DNA from: Escherichia phage vB_EcoM-ZQ1 | Reading direction: 5' to 3' (one strand) | DNA: 64,000 nt | Sequence record: MW650886.1 | Part shown: piece by piece, positions 2,986 to 59,527 of the stretch | Position numbering within the stretch: position 1 is the stretch's first letter | How the letters are laid out: every line of letters starts with the position of its first letter | Made by a program: the position numbers and the translations under genes | Notes under the pieces: model-generated | What the model saw: only the letters and a program-made list of their open reading frames with translations | Databases searched by the model: none | Told to the model about the DNA's origin: nothing

Positions 2986-3002
2986 CCAAACCCCATCCAC
3001 CA

Positions 3003-3027
3003 AGGAGGCTTCGGCCTCCTTTCAGTT
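3003..3027 (+). terminator. GC-stem hairpin with UUCG tetraloop (aggaggc-TTCG-gcctcct) followed by a short T-rich tract
   Basis: 7-bp perfect stem read directly, 18 nt after the stop at 2985; U-tract is weak. Confidence 0.5.
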
Positions 3028-3209
3028 CGAAGGCGAGACCAGGGAATACTCCCACAAGAACTTTCCTCCCCGTGATGTTCATGACCAACAGTTCGTGAAA
3101 TTGTTCTGTCGCTGTGGTGGTTGCGACTTCACAGACGAAGGATACGCGATGCACGTATACTGCTGCAATTGCTGTGGTAAATACGTAACAGTCTATAGGA
3201 GAACCAAAC

Positions 3210-5082: not shown

Positions 5083-5110
5083 GCCATGAACGCGATGATC
5101 ATGGGTTAAC

Positions 5111-5133
5111 AAAAGAGGCTCCGGCCTCTTTTT
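5111..5133 (+). terminator. rho-independent terminator (agaggc-TCCG-gcctct then TTTT)
   Basis: perfect 6-bp GC stem, tetraloop and T-run about 30 nt after the stop at 5082; a TATAAT hexamer follows at 5152-5157. Confidence 0.6.
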
Positions 5134-5200
5134 CATTTCCAGCATTTAGTGTATAATGGACCCGTTCCCCATGAGCGGAACCTAACTGAGGATACACCAA

Positions 5201-5701: not shown

Positions 5702-5746
5702 ATAGTTACAGGGGAGGAAACTCCCCGCTTCAACCAGGAGGCGCAT

Positions 5747-10547: not shown

Positions 10548-10565
10548 GGAGGGGTTCGCCCCTCC
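10548..10565 (+). promoter_or_regulatory. intercistronic UUCG-tetraloop hairpin (ggagggg-TTCG-cccctcc) with no U-tract, directly upstream of the next RBS
   Basis: 7-bp perfect stem read directly; followed by GGAGGG RBS and the ATG at 10585. Confidence 0.5.
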
Positions 10566-10584
10566 TCACCCGGAGGGTTGCGCT

Positions 10585-10872
10585 ATGTTCTATCTCCGTT
10601 CTGCAGCACCTGTGGTATTCATCATTTCCCTATTTGATTTCTTGGTTCCTCGCTTTATCAAAGAAGAGGTAGCGTTTGGTCTCTATGGTGAGACGGAAGA
10701 CCCAGAGGTCGATGAATATTACCCAATGTGCGCCCTGAAAGATATCGAGGAAGGGGAAGATGTTGCAATGGTCGGCACCATGCGTTCTTTCAATCTGTTT
10801 GGGCTTGCACTCTTTCCGAAACTGGTTGGTGAACTGCGCCCCTACGATCCTGAAGCCACTGTAGATGGTTAA
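10585..10872 (+). CDS. hypothetical protein
   Basis: 95-aa ORF with a strong GGAGGG RBS. Confidence 0.45.
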   Translation: MFYLRSAAPVVFIISLFDFLVPRFIKEEVAFGLYGETEDPEVDEYYPMCALKDIEEGEDVAMVGTMRSFNLFGLALFPKLVGELRPYDPEATVDG

Positions 10873-11605: not shown

Positions 11606-11625
11606 AGGCGGTATTATTACCGCCT
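11606..11625 (+). promoter_or_regulatory. stem-loop (aggcggta-TTAT-taccgcct) after the stop at 11599; possible terminator or RNA-stability element
   Basis: 8-bp stem read directly; downstream tract only partly T-rich. Confidence 0.4.
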
Positions 11626-13121: not shown

Positions 13122-13420
13122 TTGTATTCACTGTCATCGGTGTGATCGTAACAGCTGGGGTGTTCACAGCCATATTGGGCTACCTGTACTTCATGTTCCT
13201 TCATCCGTTATTTCAGGCGTTCAGTCTCACGAATTGGTACTTGGCCTGCCTAAAGGCCGACGGCGGCGTGAACATGGCCTCTCTTCCTTACTGGCGGCTG
13301 GTAGCGCATTACTACTCGGTCGGTGGCTGGCCTGGGGAAAGGACATGGAACTCTATCGGTGAGTGGTATGGAATAGGTCGATGGCGTATATTCCCTGATG
13401 AAGACGATCAAGCCCCGTGA
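13118..13420 (+). CDS. small membrane protein
   Basis: ATGA overlap; N-terminal hydrophobic helix IVFTVIGVIVTAGVFTAILGYLYF. Confidence 0.4.
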   Translation: MIVFTVIGVIVTAGVFTAILGYLYFMFLHPLFQAFSLTNWYLACLKADGGVNMASLPYWRLVAHYYSVGGWPGERTWNSIGEWYGIGRWRIFPDEDDQAP

Positions 13421-13430
13421 GGGGCTTTTC
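13411..13430 (+). terminator. rho-independent terminator (agcccc-GTGA-ggggct then TTTC), GNRA-type loop
   Basis: hairpin overlaps the stop codon at 13418-13420; argues against the 13398 start of the next ORF. Confidence 0.55.
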
Positions 13431-24890: not shown

Positions 24891-24902
24891 GTGGTGTCTC
24901 CA

Positions 24903-24935
24903 GGGTTATATGTGCTGCTATTATAACCCTGGGGA
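24903..24935. repeat. 33-bp near-perfect palindrome (ccagggttata-N11-tataaccctgg) upstream of the ligase start
   Basis: 11-bp inverted arms read directly; no adjacent U-tract on either strand. Confidence 0.6.
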
Positions 24936-25004
24936 CTTCAATAGATTATTGGTGGGTGTGGGATCTTGCTTAGCCGATAATGACCGCAAATGTTTCTGTA
25001 TCCA

Positions 25005-25565
25005 TCATGAACCCTCCGCCCAGACAAAGCCGTATTTGTTCAGTAGATCCACGGTTTCACCACGAGCGCGAGCCACGATAGATTCTACTGATTCTTCCAC
25101 CTCGAGTGGTGGGCAACCAGCCTTTTCGTACGTGTTAAGCAAGAGAGCAAGTTCTTTTACGAACTCTTCTTGTTCCTCTCCTCCAAAGAACCACATCCGC
25201 AGATCGTCGCGTTCCCCGTGCTTGTTCAGAGAAGCCATATTCACGTACACGTAATCGTTTTTCTGAACAACGTCATTTATCTCCGGCCAATGCAACCCAG
25301 TCATCGCATAATTGAAGAATTCCGAAGGGGTGACTTCATCCGACAAATAATACAAACGGAAGTCACCGCTGGGGCCATGTTTGCAAGTTCTATCCAGCAT
25401 TATTTTGTGGATGTCAACACGGTCTCGCTTCAAGACTTCCCGTTTCTTCAGTCGACCTCTCAGCCAGGCACTGCCAATACACAAAAGAACGAAAGCAGTA
25501 GCACCAGTGAGTATGTTGAAAGAATCAATAATGTTCATAAGATCCCCGAAGTGATAAAGGGGCAT
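25005..25565 (-). CDS. membrane-anchored protein (N-terminal TM helix, soluble C-terminal domain)
   Basis: GGAGGGG RBS upstream of the ATG at 25565; N-terminal NILTGATAFVLLCIGSAWL is hydrophobic. Confidence 0.45.
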   Translation of the reverse strand: MPLYHFGDLMNIIDSFNILTGATAFVLLCIGSAWLRGRLKKREVLKRDRVDIHKIMLDRTCKHGPSGDFRLYYLSDEVTPSEFFNYAMTGLHWPEINDVVQKNDYVYVNMASLNKHGERDDLRMWFFGGEEQEEFVKELALLLNTYEKAGCPPLEVEESVESIVARARGETVDLLNKYGFVWAEGS

Positions 25566-25579
25566 AAGCCCCTCCGATG

Positions 25580-26188
25580 TTATTTGCTCAGGCTGGCGAG
25601 GTAGTTGTCGGCTTCGATAGACGACGGGCTGTTGGCGGAGTAGCTCGAATCAGCGATTTCGGTTTCGCGCAGGATGGCATCGATATCGATGGTGGTCATA
25701 CCAGCGGCATAATCGATATCTTCAGGGAGCACCAGACCCAGGTCGTTCGTCTCTTTCTGAACACGAACCAGCTCGAGATTGGACTTGACTTCGTCCAGTT
25801 TGTCACCCAGCTGGATGATCGCACCGTTCAGTTTGTCGCTGCTTGCTTCGATGTCCTTCACCTGAGCCAACAGGGCTTCACCGATACGGCGGCGATGCAG
25901 AATAATCAGGGCGTCGGCGCGGGTTGGTGTGACACCACGAGCGATGGCGTCCTTCAGAACTTCTTCGCGCTTGGCGGCTTCACTCAGGTTCTGTTCTGCG
26001 GTCTTCTTCAGTTTGACGCCGTTGCGGACGTTGGTGACACGGGCTTCCTCCAGGCGACGGATTTCGTCAGACAGCTTGCGAGCAGCCAGGTTCAGGCGCT
26101 TTTCGGTGTCGGTCAGTTTATCCAGACCTGCGGTGACGTTGGCTTCAACAGTGGTGAAGATGCGTTTCAGTAAGTTTTTCAGTGACAT
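25580..26188 (-). CDS. PspA/IM30-family (phage-shock protein A / Vipp1-like) protein
   Basis: 202 aa; N-terminal amphipathic helix then long heptad-like coiled coil (LKNLLKRIFTTVEANVTAGLDKLTDTEKRL...) resembling PspA; GAGGA RBS. Confidence 0.55.
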   Translation of the reverse strand: MSLKNLLKRIFTTVEANVTAGLDKLTDTEKRLNLAARKLSDEIRRLEEARVTNVRNGVKLKKTAEQNLSEAAKREEVLKDAIARGVTPTRADALIILHRRRIGEALLAQVKDIEASSDKLNGAIIQLGDKLDEVKSNLELVRVQKETNDLGLVLPEDIDYAAGMTTIDIDAILRETEIADSSYSANSPSSIEADNYLASLSK

Positions 26189-26205
26189 CAGTGTGTAGTC
26201 CTCAG

Positions 26206-30582: not shown

Positions 30583-30912
30583 CTACCCCACCAAAAATTT
30601 ATTATATTCCTGAGCATTACGCTGCATGAGGTCTACAAGGATATCCCCTGACACCTCAGTGAACAAGTCATTTTCTTTCAAATTCACAAACATCAGACGC
30701 AATGGTTTCTTCAATATATCAGTCACGAAAGACAGGCGGGGTTCGCCGTCCACTTCGTTGATGGCCACCTTGCCGAACCTGAATTGAACACCACGGAATT
30801 TGCCAGAAGTGATCTTGATGATCGCCAGCTGATCAGCACCAGGGTCGATGATTGTGTAGTTATTGGGGGAGTCTCCTCCCCCTCCACTGTTATTCGCTTG
30901 TGTTAATAACAT
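30583..30912 (-). CDS. hypothetical protein in the position of T4 gene 40
   Basis: small ORF between uvsX and gp41; ORF-track start 30963 overlaps uvsX, a later ATG is more likely. Confidence 0.4.
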   Translation of the reverse strand: MLLTQANNSGGGGDSPNNYTIIDPGADQLAIIKITSGKFRGVQFRFGKVAINEVDGEPRLSFVTDILKKPLRLMFVNLKENDLFTEVSGDILVDLMQRNAQEYNKFLVG

Positions 30913-48481: not shown

Positions 48482-48501
48482 AGGGGTGATCTCTCACCCC
48501 T
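48482..48501 (-). promoter_or_regulatory. intercistronic hairpin between nrdA and nrdB (aggggtga-TCTC-tcacccct)
   Basis: 8-bp perfect stem read directly, just upstream of the nrdB RBS. Confidence 0.45.
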
Positions 48502-51812: not shown

Positions 51813-51838
51813 GATAAAGAAAAGGCCGTTTCCGGCCT
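51813..51838 (-). terminator. rho-independent terminator on the minus strand (aggccg-TTTC-cggcct then TTTCTTTAT)
   Basis: read directly, downstream of the endolysin stop. Confidence 0.6.
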
Positions 51839-51843
51839 TTGAG

Positions 51844-52700: not shown

Positions 52701-53000
52701 TTACATGGTTTCCAGCATAGAATTCAGCTTAACGATCTGCATTTCAATATTTTTCTTTAGACTCAGATACGCTTCAACTGGGGAAGCGGTTGGGCCAGTC
52801 TGATATTTTCCTGCTTGAGCTGACCAACACCGAGTGGCTTTCCAATAAAAGAGGAATACAGTGGATTCAACGCTTTCTATTTCGATAGCACCAACACCGA
52901 GTGGGCAATATTTGCGTATACCGTATCTCCACTGCTTACCAGTCTCTTTTTCCAGGGCTTGGCAAGCAACTGAACCAATTTGTTCTAGAGTAAGTTTCAT
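52701..53000 (-). CDS. hypothetical protein
   Basis: 99-aa ORF. Confidence 0.4.
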   Translation of the reverse strand: MKLTLEQIGSVACQALEKETGKQWRYGIRKYCPLGVGAIEIESVESTVFLFYWKATRCWSAQAGKYQTGPTASPVEAYLSLKKNIEMQIVKLNSMLETM

Positions 53001-53185
53001 CGCACTACCACCACTGGCATGATTTCTCTGAATGACTCGCGCACCTCAGTGTCGTACCCGTATTTCTCAAGGATTGCCATCATCGCCTGCTCAAGTTCCT
53101 CTTGGAACTGAGGAAAGACTTTGTTCGGGATGCGTTCAACAACCCAGAGAGCGCCCGCAGACGCCTGAATGACTGCTCGTGCCAT
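52997..53185 (-). CDS. hypothetical protein
   Basis: 62-aa ORF, ATGA-coupled. Confidence 0.35.
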   Translation of the reverse strand: MARAVIQASAGALWVVERIPNKVFPQFQEELEQAMMAILEKYGYDTEVRESFREIMPVVVVR

Positions 53186-53199
53186 GAGGATGGCCTCCT

Positions 53200-53236
53200 A
53201 CCAAAAACCTGAAAGGAGGGGAGTTGCCTCCCCCTT
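53200..53236 (-). terminator. rho-independent terminator on the minus strand (GC stem then TTTCAGGTTTTTGG)
   Basis: hairpin read directly, just downstream of the stop at 53245. Confidence 0.55.
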
Positions 53237-53244
53237 GCTACCGC

Positions 53245-56204: not shown

Positions 56205-56212
56205 TATTTATA
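56205..56212 (-). promoter_or_regulatory. T4 late-promoter box TATAAATA (minus strand)
   Basis: exact match on the reverse complement, immediately after the upstream terminator hairpin. Confidence 0.5.
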
Positions 56213-56229
56213 AGCCCCCGAAGGGGCTT
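56212..56229 (-). terminator. hairpin terminator after the 1096-aa gene (agcccc-TTCG-ggggct on the minus transcript)
   Basis: stem and UUCG loop read directly 8 nt after the stop at 56237; weak U-tract. Confidence 0.45.
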
Positions 56230-56236
56230 TTGATGA

Positions 56237-59200
56237 TCAGATCTTAATCTGCATGTTGCCACCCAGGGACTGCTCGTACTCGCTGTATGCGCCTTCCCCG
56301 TAGTCTCGTGCCCACTGGTCAGACTGCTGGGCGCTATCCAGAGTCATCAGGTTTGGTTCAGTCGGGTTGTAACCCTTGGACTTCGCATCCCGGTACAGAG
56401 TCTGCAGGTACTGGTTGGCGCGGTCAATCTGAGCTTTGAACTCGCGATATGCCCCTTCAGTTGTGTTGCGGCGGAAGGTGATATCCCAGTCCACGTTCAG
56501 AGTCTGACCATCACGGCTTGCATAGATCTGCCAATCCAGGTCGCGGCCTTTTGGTGCGTTGTCGCGGATGGAGTCGGCGTATGCCGCAAGGTCGTCCTTC
56601 GGATTGTGCGACGTGCTTTTCAGAAGTAGTGCATGACCCATACCACCGTTTGGCTCAAGAGACCATTTTCCTGTTTCTCTTCCCAGGCGTTCTATGTTGT
56701 TGAGTTGGTTTATCGACAATTCAGAAGAGTCAAATAATACCACATCACGTTTTTTGGGGGTTCTCACATAAGGGGTGAGATCAATGTCGATCATCCGGTT
56801 TATAAATTCTACCACTTCAGCTTGTTTCTTTGGCAATGTGGTATTGATATCCGGCTTGTTTGCCACTTTCTCTAGGCGTTTATTTTCTGCGCTTATCATG
56901 GACAGCATAATTTGTGTAACTTTGCCGTCAGACAAGTTGTAATCATTCCAAATCACTTCACCTTTATCCGTGATGGTTATATCGTTCAAGAACACCTGGT
57001 TTGGGTTGTATGACTGACTTTTCAACTGTTGGAGGTTTCTGGAAAGATATACCATTTTTGATGAAATCTCATCAATCACACTCTGGACCATATCTTTGTT
57101 TAAAGGAAGTTCATATGTCTTCGGATTGTTCAGGGTACGCCCTTTCTGAGAGACAATTGGGGTGAATGCAACTTTACCTTTGTCGTAGTAATAGGTCACG
57201 TTGGTTATCATAGAAGTACCGGCGTATTTTCCCGTTTCGGGGAAATTGACATCCCACCGAATGGACATGCCGTTGACAGTCTCACCAAACACCATGGCGT
57301 TGCTTGGTATCTTCAGGGTTCCAGAGTTGACCAGATCAGCGCCTTGGGCATTCAGGTCGATAGAACCATAGATAGCCCCGGTAATACGATCTTTCAACAT
57401 CAGGGTCTTGTCGCCCTTCTCTGGGATGATTTCCAGCGGGTGCTTGCCACGCGGAGGTTCTTTGATGAGTTCCAGTAGAGCAGTTTTCCCTGGTTTCACA
57501 CGATTCAGGACAGCGTCGGACACTGTCAGAGTCCAGTTTGCGGTTTCCACATAACCCCAGCCCCGAGAACGGCGAATGGCTTTGATAGGATATGGAGCGC
57601 TTGTTGGCACTGCGCTAATTTCCCATTTGCCAGTGTACTGGGTCTTGGCAACCTCAAAGATGGACGCAATTACTGCATTGGCGACGTCACGGGCGCTACC
57701 TTTGGCCACGTTCTCCTCTTCAGCAATTTCGCTGAAAACTGAGTATTGAACGAAACCAGCGAGGACGTTTGTGAAGTTGACAACGATAACCAACCCGCCT
57801 GCTGTCGTGTAACGACCAGCGCCCACACGACGGATGTTTTCACCAGGAAGAATAGAAGTGTCCAACCCAACGTTGGTATCAATGATACCCAGAACACGAG
57901 CGATGAAACCACTGTCACGTAATTGATCAACACTGGTTGCACCCTCGGTCGAATCCGATGCGGATTTAGACACTTTGTTCAACTTGATAGAGACAAGGGT
58001 TTCCCCGTTGACACCGATGATATCCCATTCAGTACCCTGCTCGTTCGAGGTGCGGGCAATCTTGCGCTTTGAATTGATGGCACCTTCGTAACGCCCGTTC
58101 TTGACCACAACAGAGGCAGTAGCAGCATCAGTCGCACTTGCTGCATTTGAAAAGTCTGGGTCAGAAATACTGATGTCGACGTCACCGTTTTGAGAACGCA
58201 TGCGAACACCGTTTTTGAATCGTTCAACGTTTACTTCTCGAGCACCAAGTCGTTTGGCATCAATAACAGCAGTTCCAGAACCGATAATGTTGGCTGGGTT
58301 ATTTCTGTCTGAACTGTTTTGAGAACCTTTCCAAAATTTTGTAGACGCCATGGTGAAATCATTCAGGATATTGATAGGGACTTGCGGTAATTTCAACTGA
58401 CGAGCAATGAAATCAGCACTTTGCCCACGCACAGGTTTCTCATTCATGTATGCGCCAACATACACGCCCGGCTCATTGTAGTGGGGAGCGATATTTGCCG
58501 TGTTCGTGCGGCCTCTCTCCTTACCAGCCCATAACAACATGGGCTGATCCCCGTTTGAAGTTAATTTCCATCCGTTGCCATTGCTGGTGTCATTGCTGGT
58601 GTCATTGCTGGTGTCAACGTCCACCACCAGAATTATCTGAGCACCTTTCTTGAAAGTGTACTGATCGTACATACCTTTCTTCTGTTTGGTCATGGACGCA
58701 CCGACCAAGTCTTGGTTGGTGAAGCCGCGCTTCATATTCCAAGATACCTCAGTCCCGTCTGGATATTTGTCAAAATCATAACCATAGAATGTGGCTACTT
58801 CTTTCGAACCGCTTATCAGACGGACGTAATTTCCACGAATCGGGTCTCGCCCGCTCTTCAACTCCAGACCAGTGTCCGAGCTGTTGTACCACTCGCGGTT
58901 GACTTCTATTTCAGAAGAACCAGCCCCAACTCCCACATCCGGAGTATTGTTCTGAACCGGAACGTCACCGACTTTGTCTGGATCATCCCAGGTGATACCC
59001 TGCATCTTCGGACCGTCGAATACCTGAGCCGGATCTTTACCCTTACGAACTAGCCACACATAACCACGGTCAGGAACAGGCGCGTAGGTCAGGTCCATGA
59101 CGTTCAGTTTCTGCTTCAGGCCGGACTGGCGGATGATCTTAGGAATCAGGGTCATACCGCGATCCAGCGCTTTCTTAGAGAAGTTGACAGCAAAGCCATC

Positions 59201-59527
59201 GATGGTCTTACCCAGAGGGGTCGCCATGAATTGTTTGGTCGCTTCGATCATGGAAGCGATAACGCGCATTGGGTTCTTGAAGCGAGCGATGGCGTCAGGA
59301 TAGACGGAGCCGCGCTTCTGGCCGATGAAAACCTGACGAACGCTCTTGCCCAGCCCCTGAGGAGTATAGAACTGAATGCGGTATTCCTTATCATCTTCGT
59401 CGACGAAGGTAAAGAACACATCGCCTGCGTTCTTCTTACCCATGGTCAGCTCATACGGAGCGGAGTTGAACGCTTCGTCTAACTGATCTCTTTCCTGCAT
59501 GAACTGGAGGAAACTTAGCTTTGACAT
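56237..59527 (-). CDS. large hypothetical protein (1096 aa), possibly virion-associated
   Basis: long uninterrupted ORF with AGGAGAT RBS; contains in-frame (TSND)n repeat; no catalytic motif recognised. Confidence 0.6.
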   Translation of the reverse strand: MSKLSFLQFMQERDQLDEAFNSAPYELTMGKKNAGDVFFTFVDEDDKEYRIQFYTPQGLGKSVRQVFIGQKRGSVYPDAIARFKNPMRVIASMIEATKQFMATPLGKTIDGFAVNFSKKALDRGMTLIPKIIRQSGLKQKLNVMDLTYAPVPDRGYVWLVRKGKDPAQVFDGPKMQGITWDDPDKVGDVPVQNNTPDVGVGAGSSEIEVNREWYNSSDTGLELKSGRDPIRGNYVRLISGSKEVATFYGYDFDKYPDGTEVSWNMKRGFTNQDLVGASMTKQKKGMYDQYTFKKGAQIILVVDVDTSNDTSNDTSNGNGWKLTSNGDQPMLLWAGKERGRTNTANIAPHYNEPGVYVGAYMNEKPVRGQSADFIARQLKLPQVPINILNDFTMASTKFWKGSQNSSDRNNPANIIGSGTAVIDAKRLGAREVNVERFKNGVRMRSQNGDVDISISDPDFSNAASATDAATASVVVKNGRYEGAINSKRKIARTSNEQGTEWDIIGVNGETLVSIKLNKVSKSASDSTEGATSVDQLRDSGFIARVLGIIDTNVGLDTSILPGENIRRVGAGRYTTAGGLVIVVNFTNVLAGFVQYSVFSEIAEEENVAKGSARDVANAVIASIFEVAKTQYTGKWEISAVPTSAPYPIKAIRRSRGWGYVETANWTLTVSDAVLNRVKPGKTALLELIKEPPRGKHPLEIIPEKGDKTLMLKDRITGAIYGSIDLNAQGADLVNSGTLKIPSNAMVFGETVNGMSIRWDVNFPETGKYAGTSMITNVTYYYDKGKVAFTPIVSQKGRTLNNPKTYELPLNKDMVQSVIDEISSKMVYLSRNLQQLKSQSYNPNQVFLNDITITDKGEVIWNDYNLSDGKVTQIMLSMISAENKRLEKVANKPDINTTLPKKQAEVVEFINRMIDIDLTPYVRTPKKRDVVLFDSSELSINQLNNIERLGRETGKWSLEPNGGMGHALLLKSTSHNPKDDLAAYADSIRDNAPKGRDLDWQIYASRDGQTLNVDWDITFRRNTTEGAYREFKAQIDRANQYLQTLYRDAKSKGYNPTEPNLMTLDSAQQSDQWARDYGEGAYSEYEQSLGGNMQIKI
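58579..58614. repeat. 12-bp tandem repeat, three perfect copies (cattgctggtgt), in frame inside the 1096-aa ORF, encoding (TSND)3
   Basis: copies at 58579-58590, 58591-58602, 58603-58614 with partial copies flanking. Confidence 0.8.

What the first reader, a model, noticed from the sequence alone, without database searches (positions are those of the whole stretch)
10548..10565. Recurrent GC-stem UUCG-tetraloop hairpins at gene boundaries
At least five hairpins share the same architecture: a 6-7 bp GC-rich stem closed by a UUCG loop on the transcribed strand (3003-3020, 10548-10565, 44042-44059, 39241-39256 on the minus transcript, 56212-56229 on the minus transcript), plus a UCCG variant at 5114-5129. 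Stable UUCG hairpins are characteristic of T4 intercistronic regions. The one at 10548 lacks a U-tract and abuts the next RBS, so it is more likely an mRNA stability or processing element than a terminator.
Basis: partly seen in the sequence, partly recalled or inferred. Interest (0 to 1): 0.4.

Follow-up and report, generated by a model that had tools for sequence, protein, structure and literature searches.

The report
Phage terminator and intercistronic RNA hairpins
The recurrent UUCG-capped GC hairpins are real and conserved, but they are ordinary transcription terminators and between-gene RNA hairpins of an Ackermannviridae (Ag3-like) phage, and most of their counterparts were already catalogued for a close relative in 2011.

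Summary
All six hairpins are at the stated coordinates. The five UUCG hairpins have 7-8 bp perfect stems and the UCCG hairpin has 9 bp. Folding energies are -11.7 to -14.6 kcal/mol. Each hairpin lies 0-28 nt after a stop codon and reads UNCG on the transcribed strand. Dinucleotide shuffles give 0.01-0.1 UUCG hairpins where five are observed.

The window is not T4. It is an Ackermannviridae phage, 96-98% identical to Ag3-type phages. The UUCG set is a subset of about 20 strong intergenic hairpins whose loops are mostly UNCG (6) or GNRA (6).

Four of the six (3003, 5114, 39241, 44042) have U-tracts and are canonical intrinsic terminators. Orthologues of three of them (3003, 39241, 44042), and of several non-UUCG hairpins, are listed as rho-independent terminators in the Ag3 genome paper.

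Two (10548, 56212) lack a U-tract in every relative examined. They are conserved in position, with compensatory stem changes, but with variable loops. At 10548 the loop is UUCG, UGAAUU or CAAAA depending on genus, and the closing pair is G-C, not the hyperstable C-G. 56212 directly abuts a T4-type late-promoter motif, TATAAATA.

These two are probably not terminators. An RNA-stability or insulator role, or control of the next ribosome-binding site, is inferred and not shown. The finding is ordinary and of low interest.

The parts
3002..3021 (+). cUUCGg hairpin 16 nt after the rIIB stop; intrinsic terminator. The tail here is UUUCAGUU; relatives have UUUUCUUU.
   Evidence: -13.9 kcal/mol. The UUCG loop is conserved across Agtrevirus- and Kuttervirus-like loci, with a compensatory stem variant in L016. 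Ag3 orthologue Torf002.
5111..5132 (+). cUCCGg hairpin with a strong U-tract (UUUUUCAUUU); terminator. Directly followed by a sigma70-like promoter at 5130-5157.
   Evidence: The loop flips between UCCG and UUCG among relatives. The promoter equals Ag3 Porf009.
10548..10565 (+). gUUCGc hairpin 4 nt after the stop of topoisomerase II medium subunit (gp52). It has no U-tract and lies 19 nt before the ATG of a small membrane-protein gene.
   Evidence: -14.6 kcal/mol. Position is conserved in 4 genera, with two compensatory pair changes in Taipeivirus. The loop is variable. Not in the Ag3 terminator list.
10572..10577 (+). Shine-Dalgarno GGAGGG of the downstream gene (ATG at 10585). It can pair with the 3' arm of the hairpin (alternative hairpin 10560-10577).
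   Evidence: (-10.4 kcal/mol).: -13.9 kcal/mol when the 5' arm is blocked.
39239..39258 (-). cUUCGg hairpin 5 nt after the gp32 (ssDNA-binding protein) stop, with U-tract UUUUUAUUUU. It lies between convergent gp54 (+) and gp32 (-), so it is probably bidirectional.
   Evidence: Compensatory change GCCAUC/GAUGGC to GCCCUC/GAGGGC. UCCG in the 54%-identity loci. Ag3 Torf073/074.
44041..44060 (+). cUUCGg hairpin overlapping the stop codon of a 49-aa ORF after gp26, with U-tract UUUUUAUUG; terminator.
   Evidence: Ag3 Torf083.
56212..56229 (-). cUUCGg hairpin 7 nt after the stop of a 1096-aa ORF. The tail is UUAUAAAU, which is not a real U-tract.
   Evidence: Conserved in most relatives, with some loops UGCU, CGCA or UGCG. 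Not in the Ag3 terminator list.
56205..56212 (-). TATAAATA (T4-type late-promoter consensus) abutting the 3' arm of the 56212 hairpin, 25 nt upstream of the orf101 ATG.
   Evidence: One of only two exact copies in the window; the other is upstream of gp54.
5711..5726 (+). Related hairpin GGGGAG-GAAA-CUCCCC; no U-tract here.
   Evidence: Ag3 Torf009.
11606..11625 (+). Related hairpin AGGCGGUA-UUAU-UACCGCCU; no U-tract.
   Evidence: Ag3 Torf021.
13410..13427 (+). Related hairpin AAGCCCC-GUGA-GGGGCUU with the stop codon in the loop; U-rich tail.
   Evidence: Ag3 Torf027.
30865..30882 (-). Related hairpin GGGGGAG-GAGA-CUCCCCC 8 nt after the UvsX stop; no U-tract.
48482..48501 (-). Related hairpin between NrdA and NrdB. 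The loop is GAGA here and UUCG in Kuttervirus-like relatives.
   Evidence: Ag3 Torf093.
51821..51840 (-). Related GAAA-loop terminator after the endolysin gene, with a U-tract.
53218..53233 (-). Related hairpin GGGGAG-GCAA-CUCCCC; no U-tract. It is part of a conserved cassette that precedes variable ORFs.
   Evidence: Ag3 Torf100-like.

Best explanation
The six hairpins are RNA elements that mark the 3' ends of genes in an Ag3-like Ackermannviridae phage. They fall into two functional groups.

Group 1 (3003, 5114, 39241, 44042) are canonical intrinsic (rho-independent) terminators. Each has a GC stem capped by a stable UNCG tetraloop and is followed by a U-tract. The nascent hairpin forms in the RNA exit channel while the weak rU:dA hybrid lets host RNA polymerase release. 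39241 sits between convergent gp54 and gp32 and probably works in both directions. 39241 and 44042 start 0-5 nt after a stop codon, so their efficiency should depend on how closely ribosomes follow the polymerase.

Group 2 (10548, 56212) are conserved stop-proximal hairpins without a U-tract. They should let most polymerases read through. Their most likely role is post-transcriptional (inferred, not shown): a block to 3'-to-5' exonucleases that stabilises the upstream cistron, and a fixed local structure that insulates the next ribosome-binding site. 56212 also marks the boundary in front of a late promoter.

The UUCG loop is one of two favoured stable caps, the other being GNRA. Evolution swaps them freely, so the stem and its position are what is selected, not UUCG itself.
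For: Shown:
- The window is Ackermannviridae, 96-98% identical to fGh-Ecl02, A221 and Ag3.
- All six hairpins lie 0-28 nt after stop codons on the transcribed strand.
- About 20 of 34 strong hairpins lie in the 6.6% non-coding sequence.
- On the transcribed strand the loops read UNCG x6 and GNRA x6, against one hairpin that reads as the reverse complement of such a loop.
- In the other 91 kb of the closest genome, two more UUCG hairpins (after the tail-sheath and major-capsid genes) and two GNRA hairpins also read correctly on the transcribed strand.
- The tails of 5114, 39241 and 44042 have five U directly after the GC core, and 3003 has three.
- The hairpins are conserved across genera with compensatory changes: 39241 GCCAUC to GCCCUC; 3003 GGAGGC to GGGGC; 10548 GGAGGG/CCCUCC to GGGGGC/GCCCCC.
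- Loops are interchangeable: UCCG/UUCG at 5114, GAGA/UUCG at 48482, UUCG/UGAAUU/CAAAA at 10548.
- Ag3 Table S2 lists orthologues Torf002, 073/074 and 083 as rho-independent terminators, as well as Torf009, 021, 027 and 093. It does not list the 10548 or 56212 orthologues.

From the literature:
- At least 3 U next to the hairpin are needed for intrinsic termination, and hairpins lacking U-tracts did not terminate in vitro (PMC3993855).
- UUCG and GAAA loops are known caps of rho-independent terminators and of T4 mRNA hairpins (PMC3972237).
- Ribosomes repress terminators a few bp after a stop codon. Efficiency fell from about 90% to under 10% when the distance changed from 28 to 5 bp (PMC4824070).
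Against: - No transcript 3'-end data exist for this phage family in the held literature, so no termination or stabilisation event has been observed directly.
- The 3003 tail in this particular phage (UUUCAGUU) is weaker than in its relatives.
- For 10548 and 56212 the stabiliser or insulator role is inferred only from position, conservation and the missing U-tract.
- The simple consensus terminator scan did not flag the U-tract hairpins at 3003 or 5114, although its rule is crude.
- Phage modification of host RNA polymerase could alter the requirements for termination.
Confidence: 0.75

Rival explanations
1. The 10548 hairpin is one arm of a translational switch. The SD-like 5' arm (GGAGGGG) acts as a decoy that holds the anti-SD-like 3' arm (CCCCUCC). 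When a ribosome terminating on the gp52 stop codon, 4 nt upstream, melts the 5' arm, the 3' arm re-pairs with the real Shine-Dalgarno (GGAGGG, 10572-10577). This would transiently shut off initiation of the downstream membrane-protein gene.
For: - The alternative hairpin 10560-10577 is a perfect 6-bp stem of -10.4 kcal/mol.
- With the first 16 nt after the stop blocked, the 3' arm pairs with the SD region in the window (-13.9), L003 (-13.7) and Taipeivirus (-13.8). In IME250 this alternative is already the minimum-energy fold.
- The arrangement of G-rich arm, C-rich arm and SD recurs in four genera.
- The 53218 hairpin also has a CCUCC-type segment pairing with the downstream SD.
Against: - Any C-rich arm will show some complementarity to a G-rich SD, so the pairing may be incidental.
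- The alternative is weak in Ag3-like and Limestonevirus loci (-8.9), and in Kuttervirus L007 it is not chosen at all.
- No covariation specifically supports the alternative helix.
- G-then-C stems are simply the most stable short stems, and they also occur where no SD follows closely.
Confidence: 0.12
2. All six hairpins, including 10548 and 56212, are transcription terminators. The two without U-tracts would work as non-canonical or factor-assisted terminators or attenuators on phage-modified host RNA polymerase.
For: - They have the same architecture, stability and stop-proximal position as the U-tract hairpins.
- Ag3 annotators listed several weak-tail hairpins of the same type (Torf009, Torf100) as terminators.
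- 56212 sits just upstream of a promoter motif, where a transcription-unit boundary is expected.
Against: - There is only one U (10548) or two (56212) next to the stem, and none of four genera restores a U-tract at 10548.
- Hairpins lacking U-tracts did not terminate with purified polymerases, even with NusA or NusG (PMC3993855).
- 10548 starts 4 nt after a stop codon, where ribosomes suppress hairpin folding (PMC4824070).
- The next gene has its own SD 6 nt after the hairpin and no room for a promoter, so termination there would silence it.
Confidence: 0.08
3. The hairpins act mainly at the DNA level as recombination junctions, like the PeSL terminator/promoter cassettes of T4-like phages that mediate modular gene shuffling.
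For: - 5114 is a stem-loop immediately followed by a sigma70-like promoter (Ag3 Porf009), which is the PeSL layout (PMC4122927).
- Homology to relatives breaks at the 3' edge of the 3003 hairpin.
- The 53218 hairpin cassette is conserved while the ORF after it differs between phages.
- RB49/phi1 PeSL stems are G(n)-loop-C(n), similar to GGGGAG/CUCCCC.
Against: - The strand-specific UNCG/GNRA loops and the compensatory stem changes point to selection on the RNA.
- 10548, 39241 and 44042 lie between conserved core genes with no indels.
- Shuffling at such sites would be a by-product of repeated terminator sequences, not an alternative to their RNA role.
Confidence: 0.05

Closest known systems
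Rho-independent terminators catalogued for Shigella phage Ag3 (Anany et al. 2011, Virol J 8:242, Additional file 2 Table S2)
   Same: They are orthologous sequences in a phage about 96-97% identical. Torf002 gggggcttcggcctcc (= 3003), Torf073/074 gccctccgaagagggc (= 39241, bidirectional) and Torf083 atcccgcttcggcgggat (= 44042). Torf009, 021, 027 and 093 match the non-UUCG hairpins.
   Different: The table omits the orthologues of 10548, 56212 and 5114. It relied on poly-T-anchored prediction, and no loop-type or conservation analysis was made.
E. coli-type intrinsic terminators with UUCG or GNRA tetraloops (d'Aubenton Carafa et al. 1990; Tuerk et al. 1988, as cited in PMC3972237)
   Same: GC-rich stem, stable tetraloop cap, U-tract, and position just after a stop codon on the transcribed strand. 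This holds for 3003, 5114, 39241 and 44042.
   Different: 10548 and 56212 lack the U-tract. 10548 also has a G-C rather than a C-G closing pair.
C(UUCG)G hairpins of T4 intercistronic regions (Tuerk et al. 1988; from my own knowledge, as the paper is not held)
   Same: The same loop and closing pair in four of the five UUCG hairpins, an intercistronic location, and a phage that shares T4-like replication and late-transcription genes (gp32, gp52, gp55, gp33, gp45).
   Different: This is a different virus family (Ackermannviridae, 49% GC). The hairpins are not homologous to those of T4. UUCG is a minority loop here (7 in about 153 kb), alongside the more numerous GNRA loops.
PeSL composite terminator/early-promoter cassettes of T4-like phages (Arbiol 2010; Comeau 2014, PMC4122927)
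   Same: 5114 is a stem-loop directly followed by TTTTCA-N16-TATAAT. G(n)-loop-C(n) stems occur, and some hairpins sit at indel or variable-ORF junctions.
   Different: 10548 has no promoter: only 19 nt separate it from the next ATG. Most of the hairpins lie between conserved core genes.
Intercistronic stem-loops that stabilise upstream mRNA against 3' exonucleases (for example REP elements in the E. coli malE-malF operon; from my own knowledge)
   Same: A stable hairpin without a U-tract lying between co-transcribed genes (10548, 56212, 5711, 30865, 53218).
   Different: These are single short hairpins, not repeated REP units. No half-life data exist for them.

Membership tests
Intrinsic (rho-independent) terminator | GC-rich RNA hairpin on the transcribed strand downstream of a gene | tested here: met
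   All six have 7-9 bp perfect stems with energies of -11.7 to -14.6 kcal/mol and lie 0-28 nt after stop codons.
Intrinsic (rho-independent) terminator | U-tract with at least 3 U directly adjacent to the stem | tested here: inconclusive
   Met for 5114 (UUUUUCAUUU), 39241 (UUUUUAUUUU), 44042 (UUUUUAUUG) and 3003 (UUUCAGUU). Not met for 10548 (UCACCCGG) or 56212 (UUAUAAAU), nor for the 10548 orthologues in four genera. The set is therefore split four to two.
Intrinsic (rho-independent) terminator | RNA 3' ends generated at the U-tract by RNA polymerase release | not testable with these tools
   No transcriptome or Term-seq data for Ackermannviridae were found.
Hyperstable C(UUCG)G tetraloop hairpin (UNCG class) | Loop UUCG (UNCG) | tested here: met
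   Five UUCG and one UCCG on the transcribed strand.
Hyperstable C(UUCG)G tetraloop hairpin (UNCG class) | C-G closing base pair | tested here: inconclusive
   Met for 3003, 5114, 39241, 44042 and 56212. Not met for 10548, whose closing pair is G-C.
T4 intercistronic CUUCGG hairpins | Located in the T4 (Tevenvirinae) genome, or homologous to those sites | tested here: not met
   The window is Ackermannviridae at 49.4% GC. The resemblance is functional, not homologous.
PeSL (promoter-early stem-loop) cassette | Stem-loop immediately followed by a sigma70-like early promoter | tested here: inconclusive
   5114 is followed by TTTTCA-16-TATAAT, a 10/12 match. At 10548 there are only 19 nt to the next ATG and no promoter. 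56212 is followed by a late-type TATAAATA instead.
PeSL (promoter-early stem-loop) cassette | Association with indels or variable ORFs between close relatives | tested here: inconclusive
   Breakpoints are seen at 3003 and 53218. They are not seen at 10548, 39241 or 44042. No genome-wide statistic was computed.
mRNA-stabilising intercistronic hairpin | Stable stem-loop between co-transcribed genes that is not a terminator | tested here: met
   10548 and 56212 lie in 41-nt and 56-nt spacers between same-strand genes and have no U-tract.
mRNA-stabilising intercistronic hairpin | Longer half-life of the upstream RNA segment that depends on the hairpin | not testable with these tools
   This needs RNA decay measurements.

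The most novel reading that the evidence does not exclude
The U-tract-less hairpin after gp52 (10548) is the sensor of a conserved three-part translational switch made of an SD-like decoy arm, an anti-SD-like arm and the real SD. A ribosome terminating on gp52 melts the decoy arm and lets the anti-SD arm sequester the ribosome-binding site of the downstream membrane-protein gene. Expression of the two genes would then be inversely coupled. The same logic might apply to the other GGGGAG/CUCCCC hairpins (5711, 30865, 53218).
Probability: 0.1. Interest if true: 0.45.

Novelty: already known. Interest (0 to 1): 0.12.

Why it matters
The finding matters little beyond annotation. It shows that this phage family marks its gene ends with tetraloop-capped hairpins, as enterobacteria and T4 do. 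UNCG and GNRA caps are interchangeable in evolution. A conserved subset without U-tracts (after gp52, UvsX and others) has been left out of, or mis-stranded in, existing annotations. That subset would be a reasonable target if anyone maps the transcriptome of an Ackermannviridae phage, because it could reveal mRNA-stability or translational control within operons.

Tried and rejected
- An Rfam search of the whole window at gathering thresholds found nothing.
- The built-in consensus terminator scan did not flag 3003, 5114 or 10548. Its rule of 5 T in 8 bases after the stem fails when A/U pairs extend the stem, so I did not rely on it. A second scan failed on a range limit.
- A first ORF-based gene caller truncated genes. 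I replaced it with a tblastn projection of the fGh-Ecl02 annotation.
- The MAFFT alignment of the gp52 junction put the Taipeivirus stem one column out of register. I therefore counted compensatory pairs by hand from the stem base and did not use the count of structure pairs.
- Literature searches found no Ackermannviridae transcriptome or 3'-end map.
- The Tuerk 1988 paper and the T4 genome review are not held. The T4 statement rests on a secondary citation and on my own knowledge.
- Chance was rejected as an explanation.
- I rejected the idea that the hairpins are antisense-strand terminators. At 56212 the plus-strand tail UUUUGAUG looks terminator-like in this window, but it is not conserved in relatives and there are no plus-strand genes nearby. 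The 'terminator' in the Magnus record at the gp52 junction is on the non-coding strand and looks like a prediction artefact.
- RNase III processing was rejected because the stems are too short (7-9 bp).

Full report
**Observation**

All six hairpins exist at the stated coordinates. An exhaustive scan for perfect stems of 5 bp or more around 4-nt loops found exactly five with TTCG or CGAA loops: 3002-3021, 10548-10565, 39239-39258, 44041-44060 and 56212-56229. All five have 7-8 bp stems. The UCCG hairpin at 5111-5132 has a 9 bp stem. Folded as RNA on the transcribed strand, they give -11.7 to -14.6 kcal/mol, with z-scores of -2.7 to -5.7. In 300 dinucleotide-preserving shuffles of the window, the mean count of UUCG/CGAA hairpins was 0.50, 0.11 and 0.01 for stems of at least 5, 6 and 7 bp. 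Five were observed at each threshold. The 10548 hairpin closes with G-C (gUUCGc), not the C-G pair that gives C(UUCG)G its exceptional stability.

**What genome this is**

The window has 49.4% GC. It is 96-98% identical to Enterobacter phage fGh-Ecl02, Escherichia phages A221, PC3 and AV101, and Shigella phage Ag3, with more distant matches to Limestonevirus, Kuttervirus and Taipeivirus. It is therefore an Ag3-like Ackermannviridae phage, not T4. It does carry T4-like genes, including rIIA/B, topoisomerase II, gp32, UvsX, gp41, gp61, NrdAB and baseplate genes. The closest genome also encodes gp55, gp33, gp45 and RegA. I projected the fGh-Ecl02 annotation onto the window by tblastn. This gave 93.4% coding sequence.

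**Placement of the hairpins**

Every hairpin lies just after a stop codon and reads UNCG on the strand of the gene it follows:
- 3003 is 16 nt after rIIB.
- 5114 is 28 nt after a 77-aa ORF.
- 10548 is 4 nt after topoisomerase II medium subunit (gp52) and 19 nt before the ATG of a conserved small membrane-protein gene.
- 39241 is 5 nt after gp32, in the 26-nt gap between convergent gp54 and gp32.
- 44042 overlaps the stop of a 49-aa ORF after gp26.
- 56212 is 7 nt after a 1096-aa ORF.

**The UUCG hairpins are part of a larger population**

Of 34 perfect-stem hairpins with an energy of -9 kcal/mol or lower, about 20 lie in the 6.6% of the window that is non-coding. Read on the transcribed strand, their tetraloops are UNCG x6, GNRA x6 (5711 GAAA, 13410 GUGA, 30865 GAGA, 48482 GAGA, 51821 GAAA, 53218 GCAA), UUAU x2, and a few others. 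Only one (60013) reads as the reverse complement of a stable loop.

The remaining 91 kb of the closest genome provides an independent sample. It holds two more cUUCGg hairpins, after the tail-sheath and major-capsid genes, and two GNRA hairpins. All are correct on the transcribed strand. One further hairpin lies between convergent genes and is ambiguous. This strand specificity points to selection on the RNA, not the DNA.

**Two functional groups**

Counting U residues directly after the GC core separates the six hairpins:
- 5114 (UUUUUCAUUU), 39241 (UUUUUAUUUU), 44042 (UUUUUAUUG) and 3003 (UUUCAGUU) have at least three adjacent U.
- 10548 (UCACCCGG) has one.
- 56212 (UUAUAAAU) has two.

Mechanistic work cited in PMC3993855 states that at least 3 U next to the hairpin are needed. 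That study found no termination at hairpins lacking U-tracts, even with NusA or NusG. The first four are therefore canonical intrinsic terminators, and the last two are not.

**Conservation**

I fetched 51 related loci from IMG/VR using gp52, gp32 and primase as queries, plus five GenBank junctions.

- The rIIB hairpin keeps cUUCGg across Agtrevirus-like and Kuttervirus-like loci. Most have a full U-tract (CCUCCUUUUCUUU). One locus has UCCG, and L016 has a compensated stem (GGGGC/GCCCC).
- 5114 flips between UCCG and UUCG among close relatives. It is followed by a sigma70-like promoter, TTTTCA-N16-TATAAT.
- The gp32 terminator keeps UUCG, or UCCG at 54% protein identity. It shows a double compensatory change, GCCAUC/GAUGGC to GCCCUC/GAGGGC.
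- 44042 is invariant among the closer relatives.
- 56212 is conserved in most relatives. Some have the loop replaced by UGCU, CGCA or UGCG.
- A hairpin at the 10548 position is present 4-5 nt after the gp52 stop in Agtrevirus-like and Limestonevirus (GGAGGGG-UUCG-CCCCUCC), Kuttervirus-like (GGAGGG-UGAAUU-CCCUCC) and Taipeivirus (GGGGGC-CAAAA or UAAA-GCCCCC). Counting from the stem base, Taipeivirus differs by two compensated pairs. None of these has a U-tract. Only the 63%-identity locus L018 lacks the hairpin.

At 10548, therefore, the stem and its position are conserved and the UUCG loop is not. Loop swapping also occurs at the NrdA-NrdB hairpin, which is GAGA here and UUCG in Kuttervirus-like loci.

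**Prior knowledge**

The Ag3 genome paper (PMC3121705) reports 40 intergenic rho-independent terminators. Its Table S2 lists the orthologues of 3003 (Torf002), 39241 (Torf073/074, given as bidirectional) and 44042 (Torf083). It lists another cUUCGg terminator (Torf185), which matches the hairpin after the capsid gene. It also lists the orthologues of 5711, 11606, 13410 and 48482. It does not list the orthologues of 10548, 56212 or 5114, although the promoter after 5114 appears as Porf009.

The LIMEstone paper reports 31 terminators and 33 late promoters. UUCG and GAAA loops as caps of rho-independent terminators and of T4 mRNA hairpins are textbook knowledge (PMC3972237 citing Tuerk 1988 and d'Aubenton Carafa 1990).

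**The two hairpins without U-tracts**

*56212.* This hairpin is followed directly by TATAAATA (56205-56212, minus strand), the T4 late-promoter consensus, 25 nt upstream of the next ATG. It is one of only two exact copies in the window. The other lies 35 nt upstream of the baseplate gene gp54. One-mismatch copies sit 29-35 nt upstream of gp26, gp5 and the endolysin gene. The hairpin therefore marks the end of one unit immediately before a probable late promoter.

*10548.* The spacer is 41 nt: stop, 4 nt, hairpin, 6 nt, SD GGAGGG, 7 nt, ATG. There is no room for a promoter, so the downstream gene must be read from the same transcript. This argues against efficient termination. The hairpin starts so close to the stop codon that a terminating ribosome would cover its 5' arm. 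Ribosomes are known to suppress the folding of hairpins placed about 5 bp after a stop codon (PMC4824070).

The most economical reading is a post-transcriptional element: a barrier to 3' exonucleases, or a fixed structure that insulates the next ribosome-binding site. This is inference only.

**A more interesting possibility**

The 3' arm of the 10548 hairpin (CCCUCC) is complementary to the downstream SD. The alternative hairpin 10560-10577 is a perfect 6-bp stem of -10.4 kcal/mol. I blocked the first 16 nt after the stop to mimic a terminating ribosome. The 3' arm then re-paired with the SD as follows:

| Locus or clade | Energy with 5' arm blocked (kcal/mol) |
|---|---|
| Window | -13.9 |
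| L003 | -13.7 |
| Taipeivirus (already the minimum-energy fold in IME250) | -13.8 |
| Ag3-like and Limestonevirus | -8.9 |
| Kuttervirus-like | -9 to -10, and not chosen at all in L007 |

Any C-rich arm will partly match a G-rich SD, and no covariation specifically supports this second helix. I therefore rate the switch model at about 10%.

**Comparison with known systems**

- Four hairpins meet every testable criterion for intrinsic terminators.
- Five of the six have the C-G closing pair of the hyperstable UNCG class; 10548 does not.
- None is a member of the T4 set, because this is a different virus family.
- 5114 has the stem-loop-plus-early-promoter layout of PeSL cassettes (PMC4122927). 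Some hairpins sit at indel or variable-ORF junctions, but the core-gene hairpins do not.
- Rfam has no matching family.

**Verdict**

The hairpins are a real, conserved and strand-specific feature, but an ordinary one. Most of it is already catalogued in the type phage of the group. Its function remains untested, and the UUCG loop is incidental there.

Novelty: already known. Interest: about 0.12.

Noticed in passing
window 25580-26188 (-), within the insertion 24891-26205: A window-specific insertion, absent from the closest genome fGh-Ecl02, carries two ORFs. The 202-aa ORF matches Pfam PspA/IM30 (PF04012, E 4.9e-11, above the curated cut-off), so it is a phage-encoded phage-shock-protein-A-like gene.
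   Followed up: partly
window 11606-11625 (+); L017, L014 and L018 orthologues: The hairpin after the Arn.3-like gene has a -10-like hexamer in its loop and upper stem. It reads TATTAT here and TATAAT in Kuttervirus-like loci and in the 63%-identity locus (GGGGTATAATGTACCCC). A promoter-like box conserved inside a hairpin is unexplained.
   Followed up: no
window 53186-53244 (-) and ORFs 52701-53185: The hairpin GGGGAG-GCAA-CUCCCC and the following sequence TCCTTATTCAGATTTTTGGTAGGAG are conserved across Agtrevirus- and Kuttervirus-like loci, but the ORF that follows differs from phage to phage. The window's orf62 and orf99 are absent from fGh-Ecl02. This resembles a PeSL-like shuffling junction.
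   Followed up: partly
window 3021-3209: Homology with most relatives breaks exactly at the 3' edge of the rIIB terminator. The window and L003 have about 190 nt of different non-coding DNA, where other relatives run straight into the next gene's SD and ATG.
   Followed up: no
window 5083-5110: [quoted passage not shown] It occurs only in the window and L010.
   Followed up: no
window 38251-38258 (+), 43051 (+), 44364 (+), 52669 (-), 56205 (-): T4-type late-promoter motifs (TATAAATA, at most one mismatch) lie 25-35 nt upstream of gp54, gp26, gp5, the endolysin gene and orf101. Six of the 19 hits in the window fall in such upstream zones.
   Followed up: partly
L054 (Klebsiella phage Magnus NC_049462.1) 507-531: The record annotates a 'terminator' at the gp52 junction hairpin, but on the strand opposite to all nearby genes. 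This is probably a prediction artefact caused by a T-rich flank.
   Followed up: yes
ON212266.1 (fGh-Ecl02) taxonomy line: The closest record is filed under Cvivirinae; Kuttervirus. Here it is about 97% identical to Ag3-type (Agtrevirus) phages and only about 67-70% identical to true Kuttervirus phages such as Vi01. The classification is probably wrong.
   Followed up: no
window 48482-48501 (-): The NrdA-NrdB intergenic hairpin has a GAGA loop here, GAUA in Ag3-like loci and UUCG in Kuttervirus-like loci, all on an unchanged stem. This is a clean example of swapping between stable tetraloop classes.
   Followed up: yes
window 56237-59527 (-): A 1096-aa ORF with no Pfam match. Its counterpart in fGh-Ecl02 is 913 aa and aligns at only 82% over its central part, so this is a variable large protein of unknown function.
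   Followed up: no
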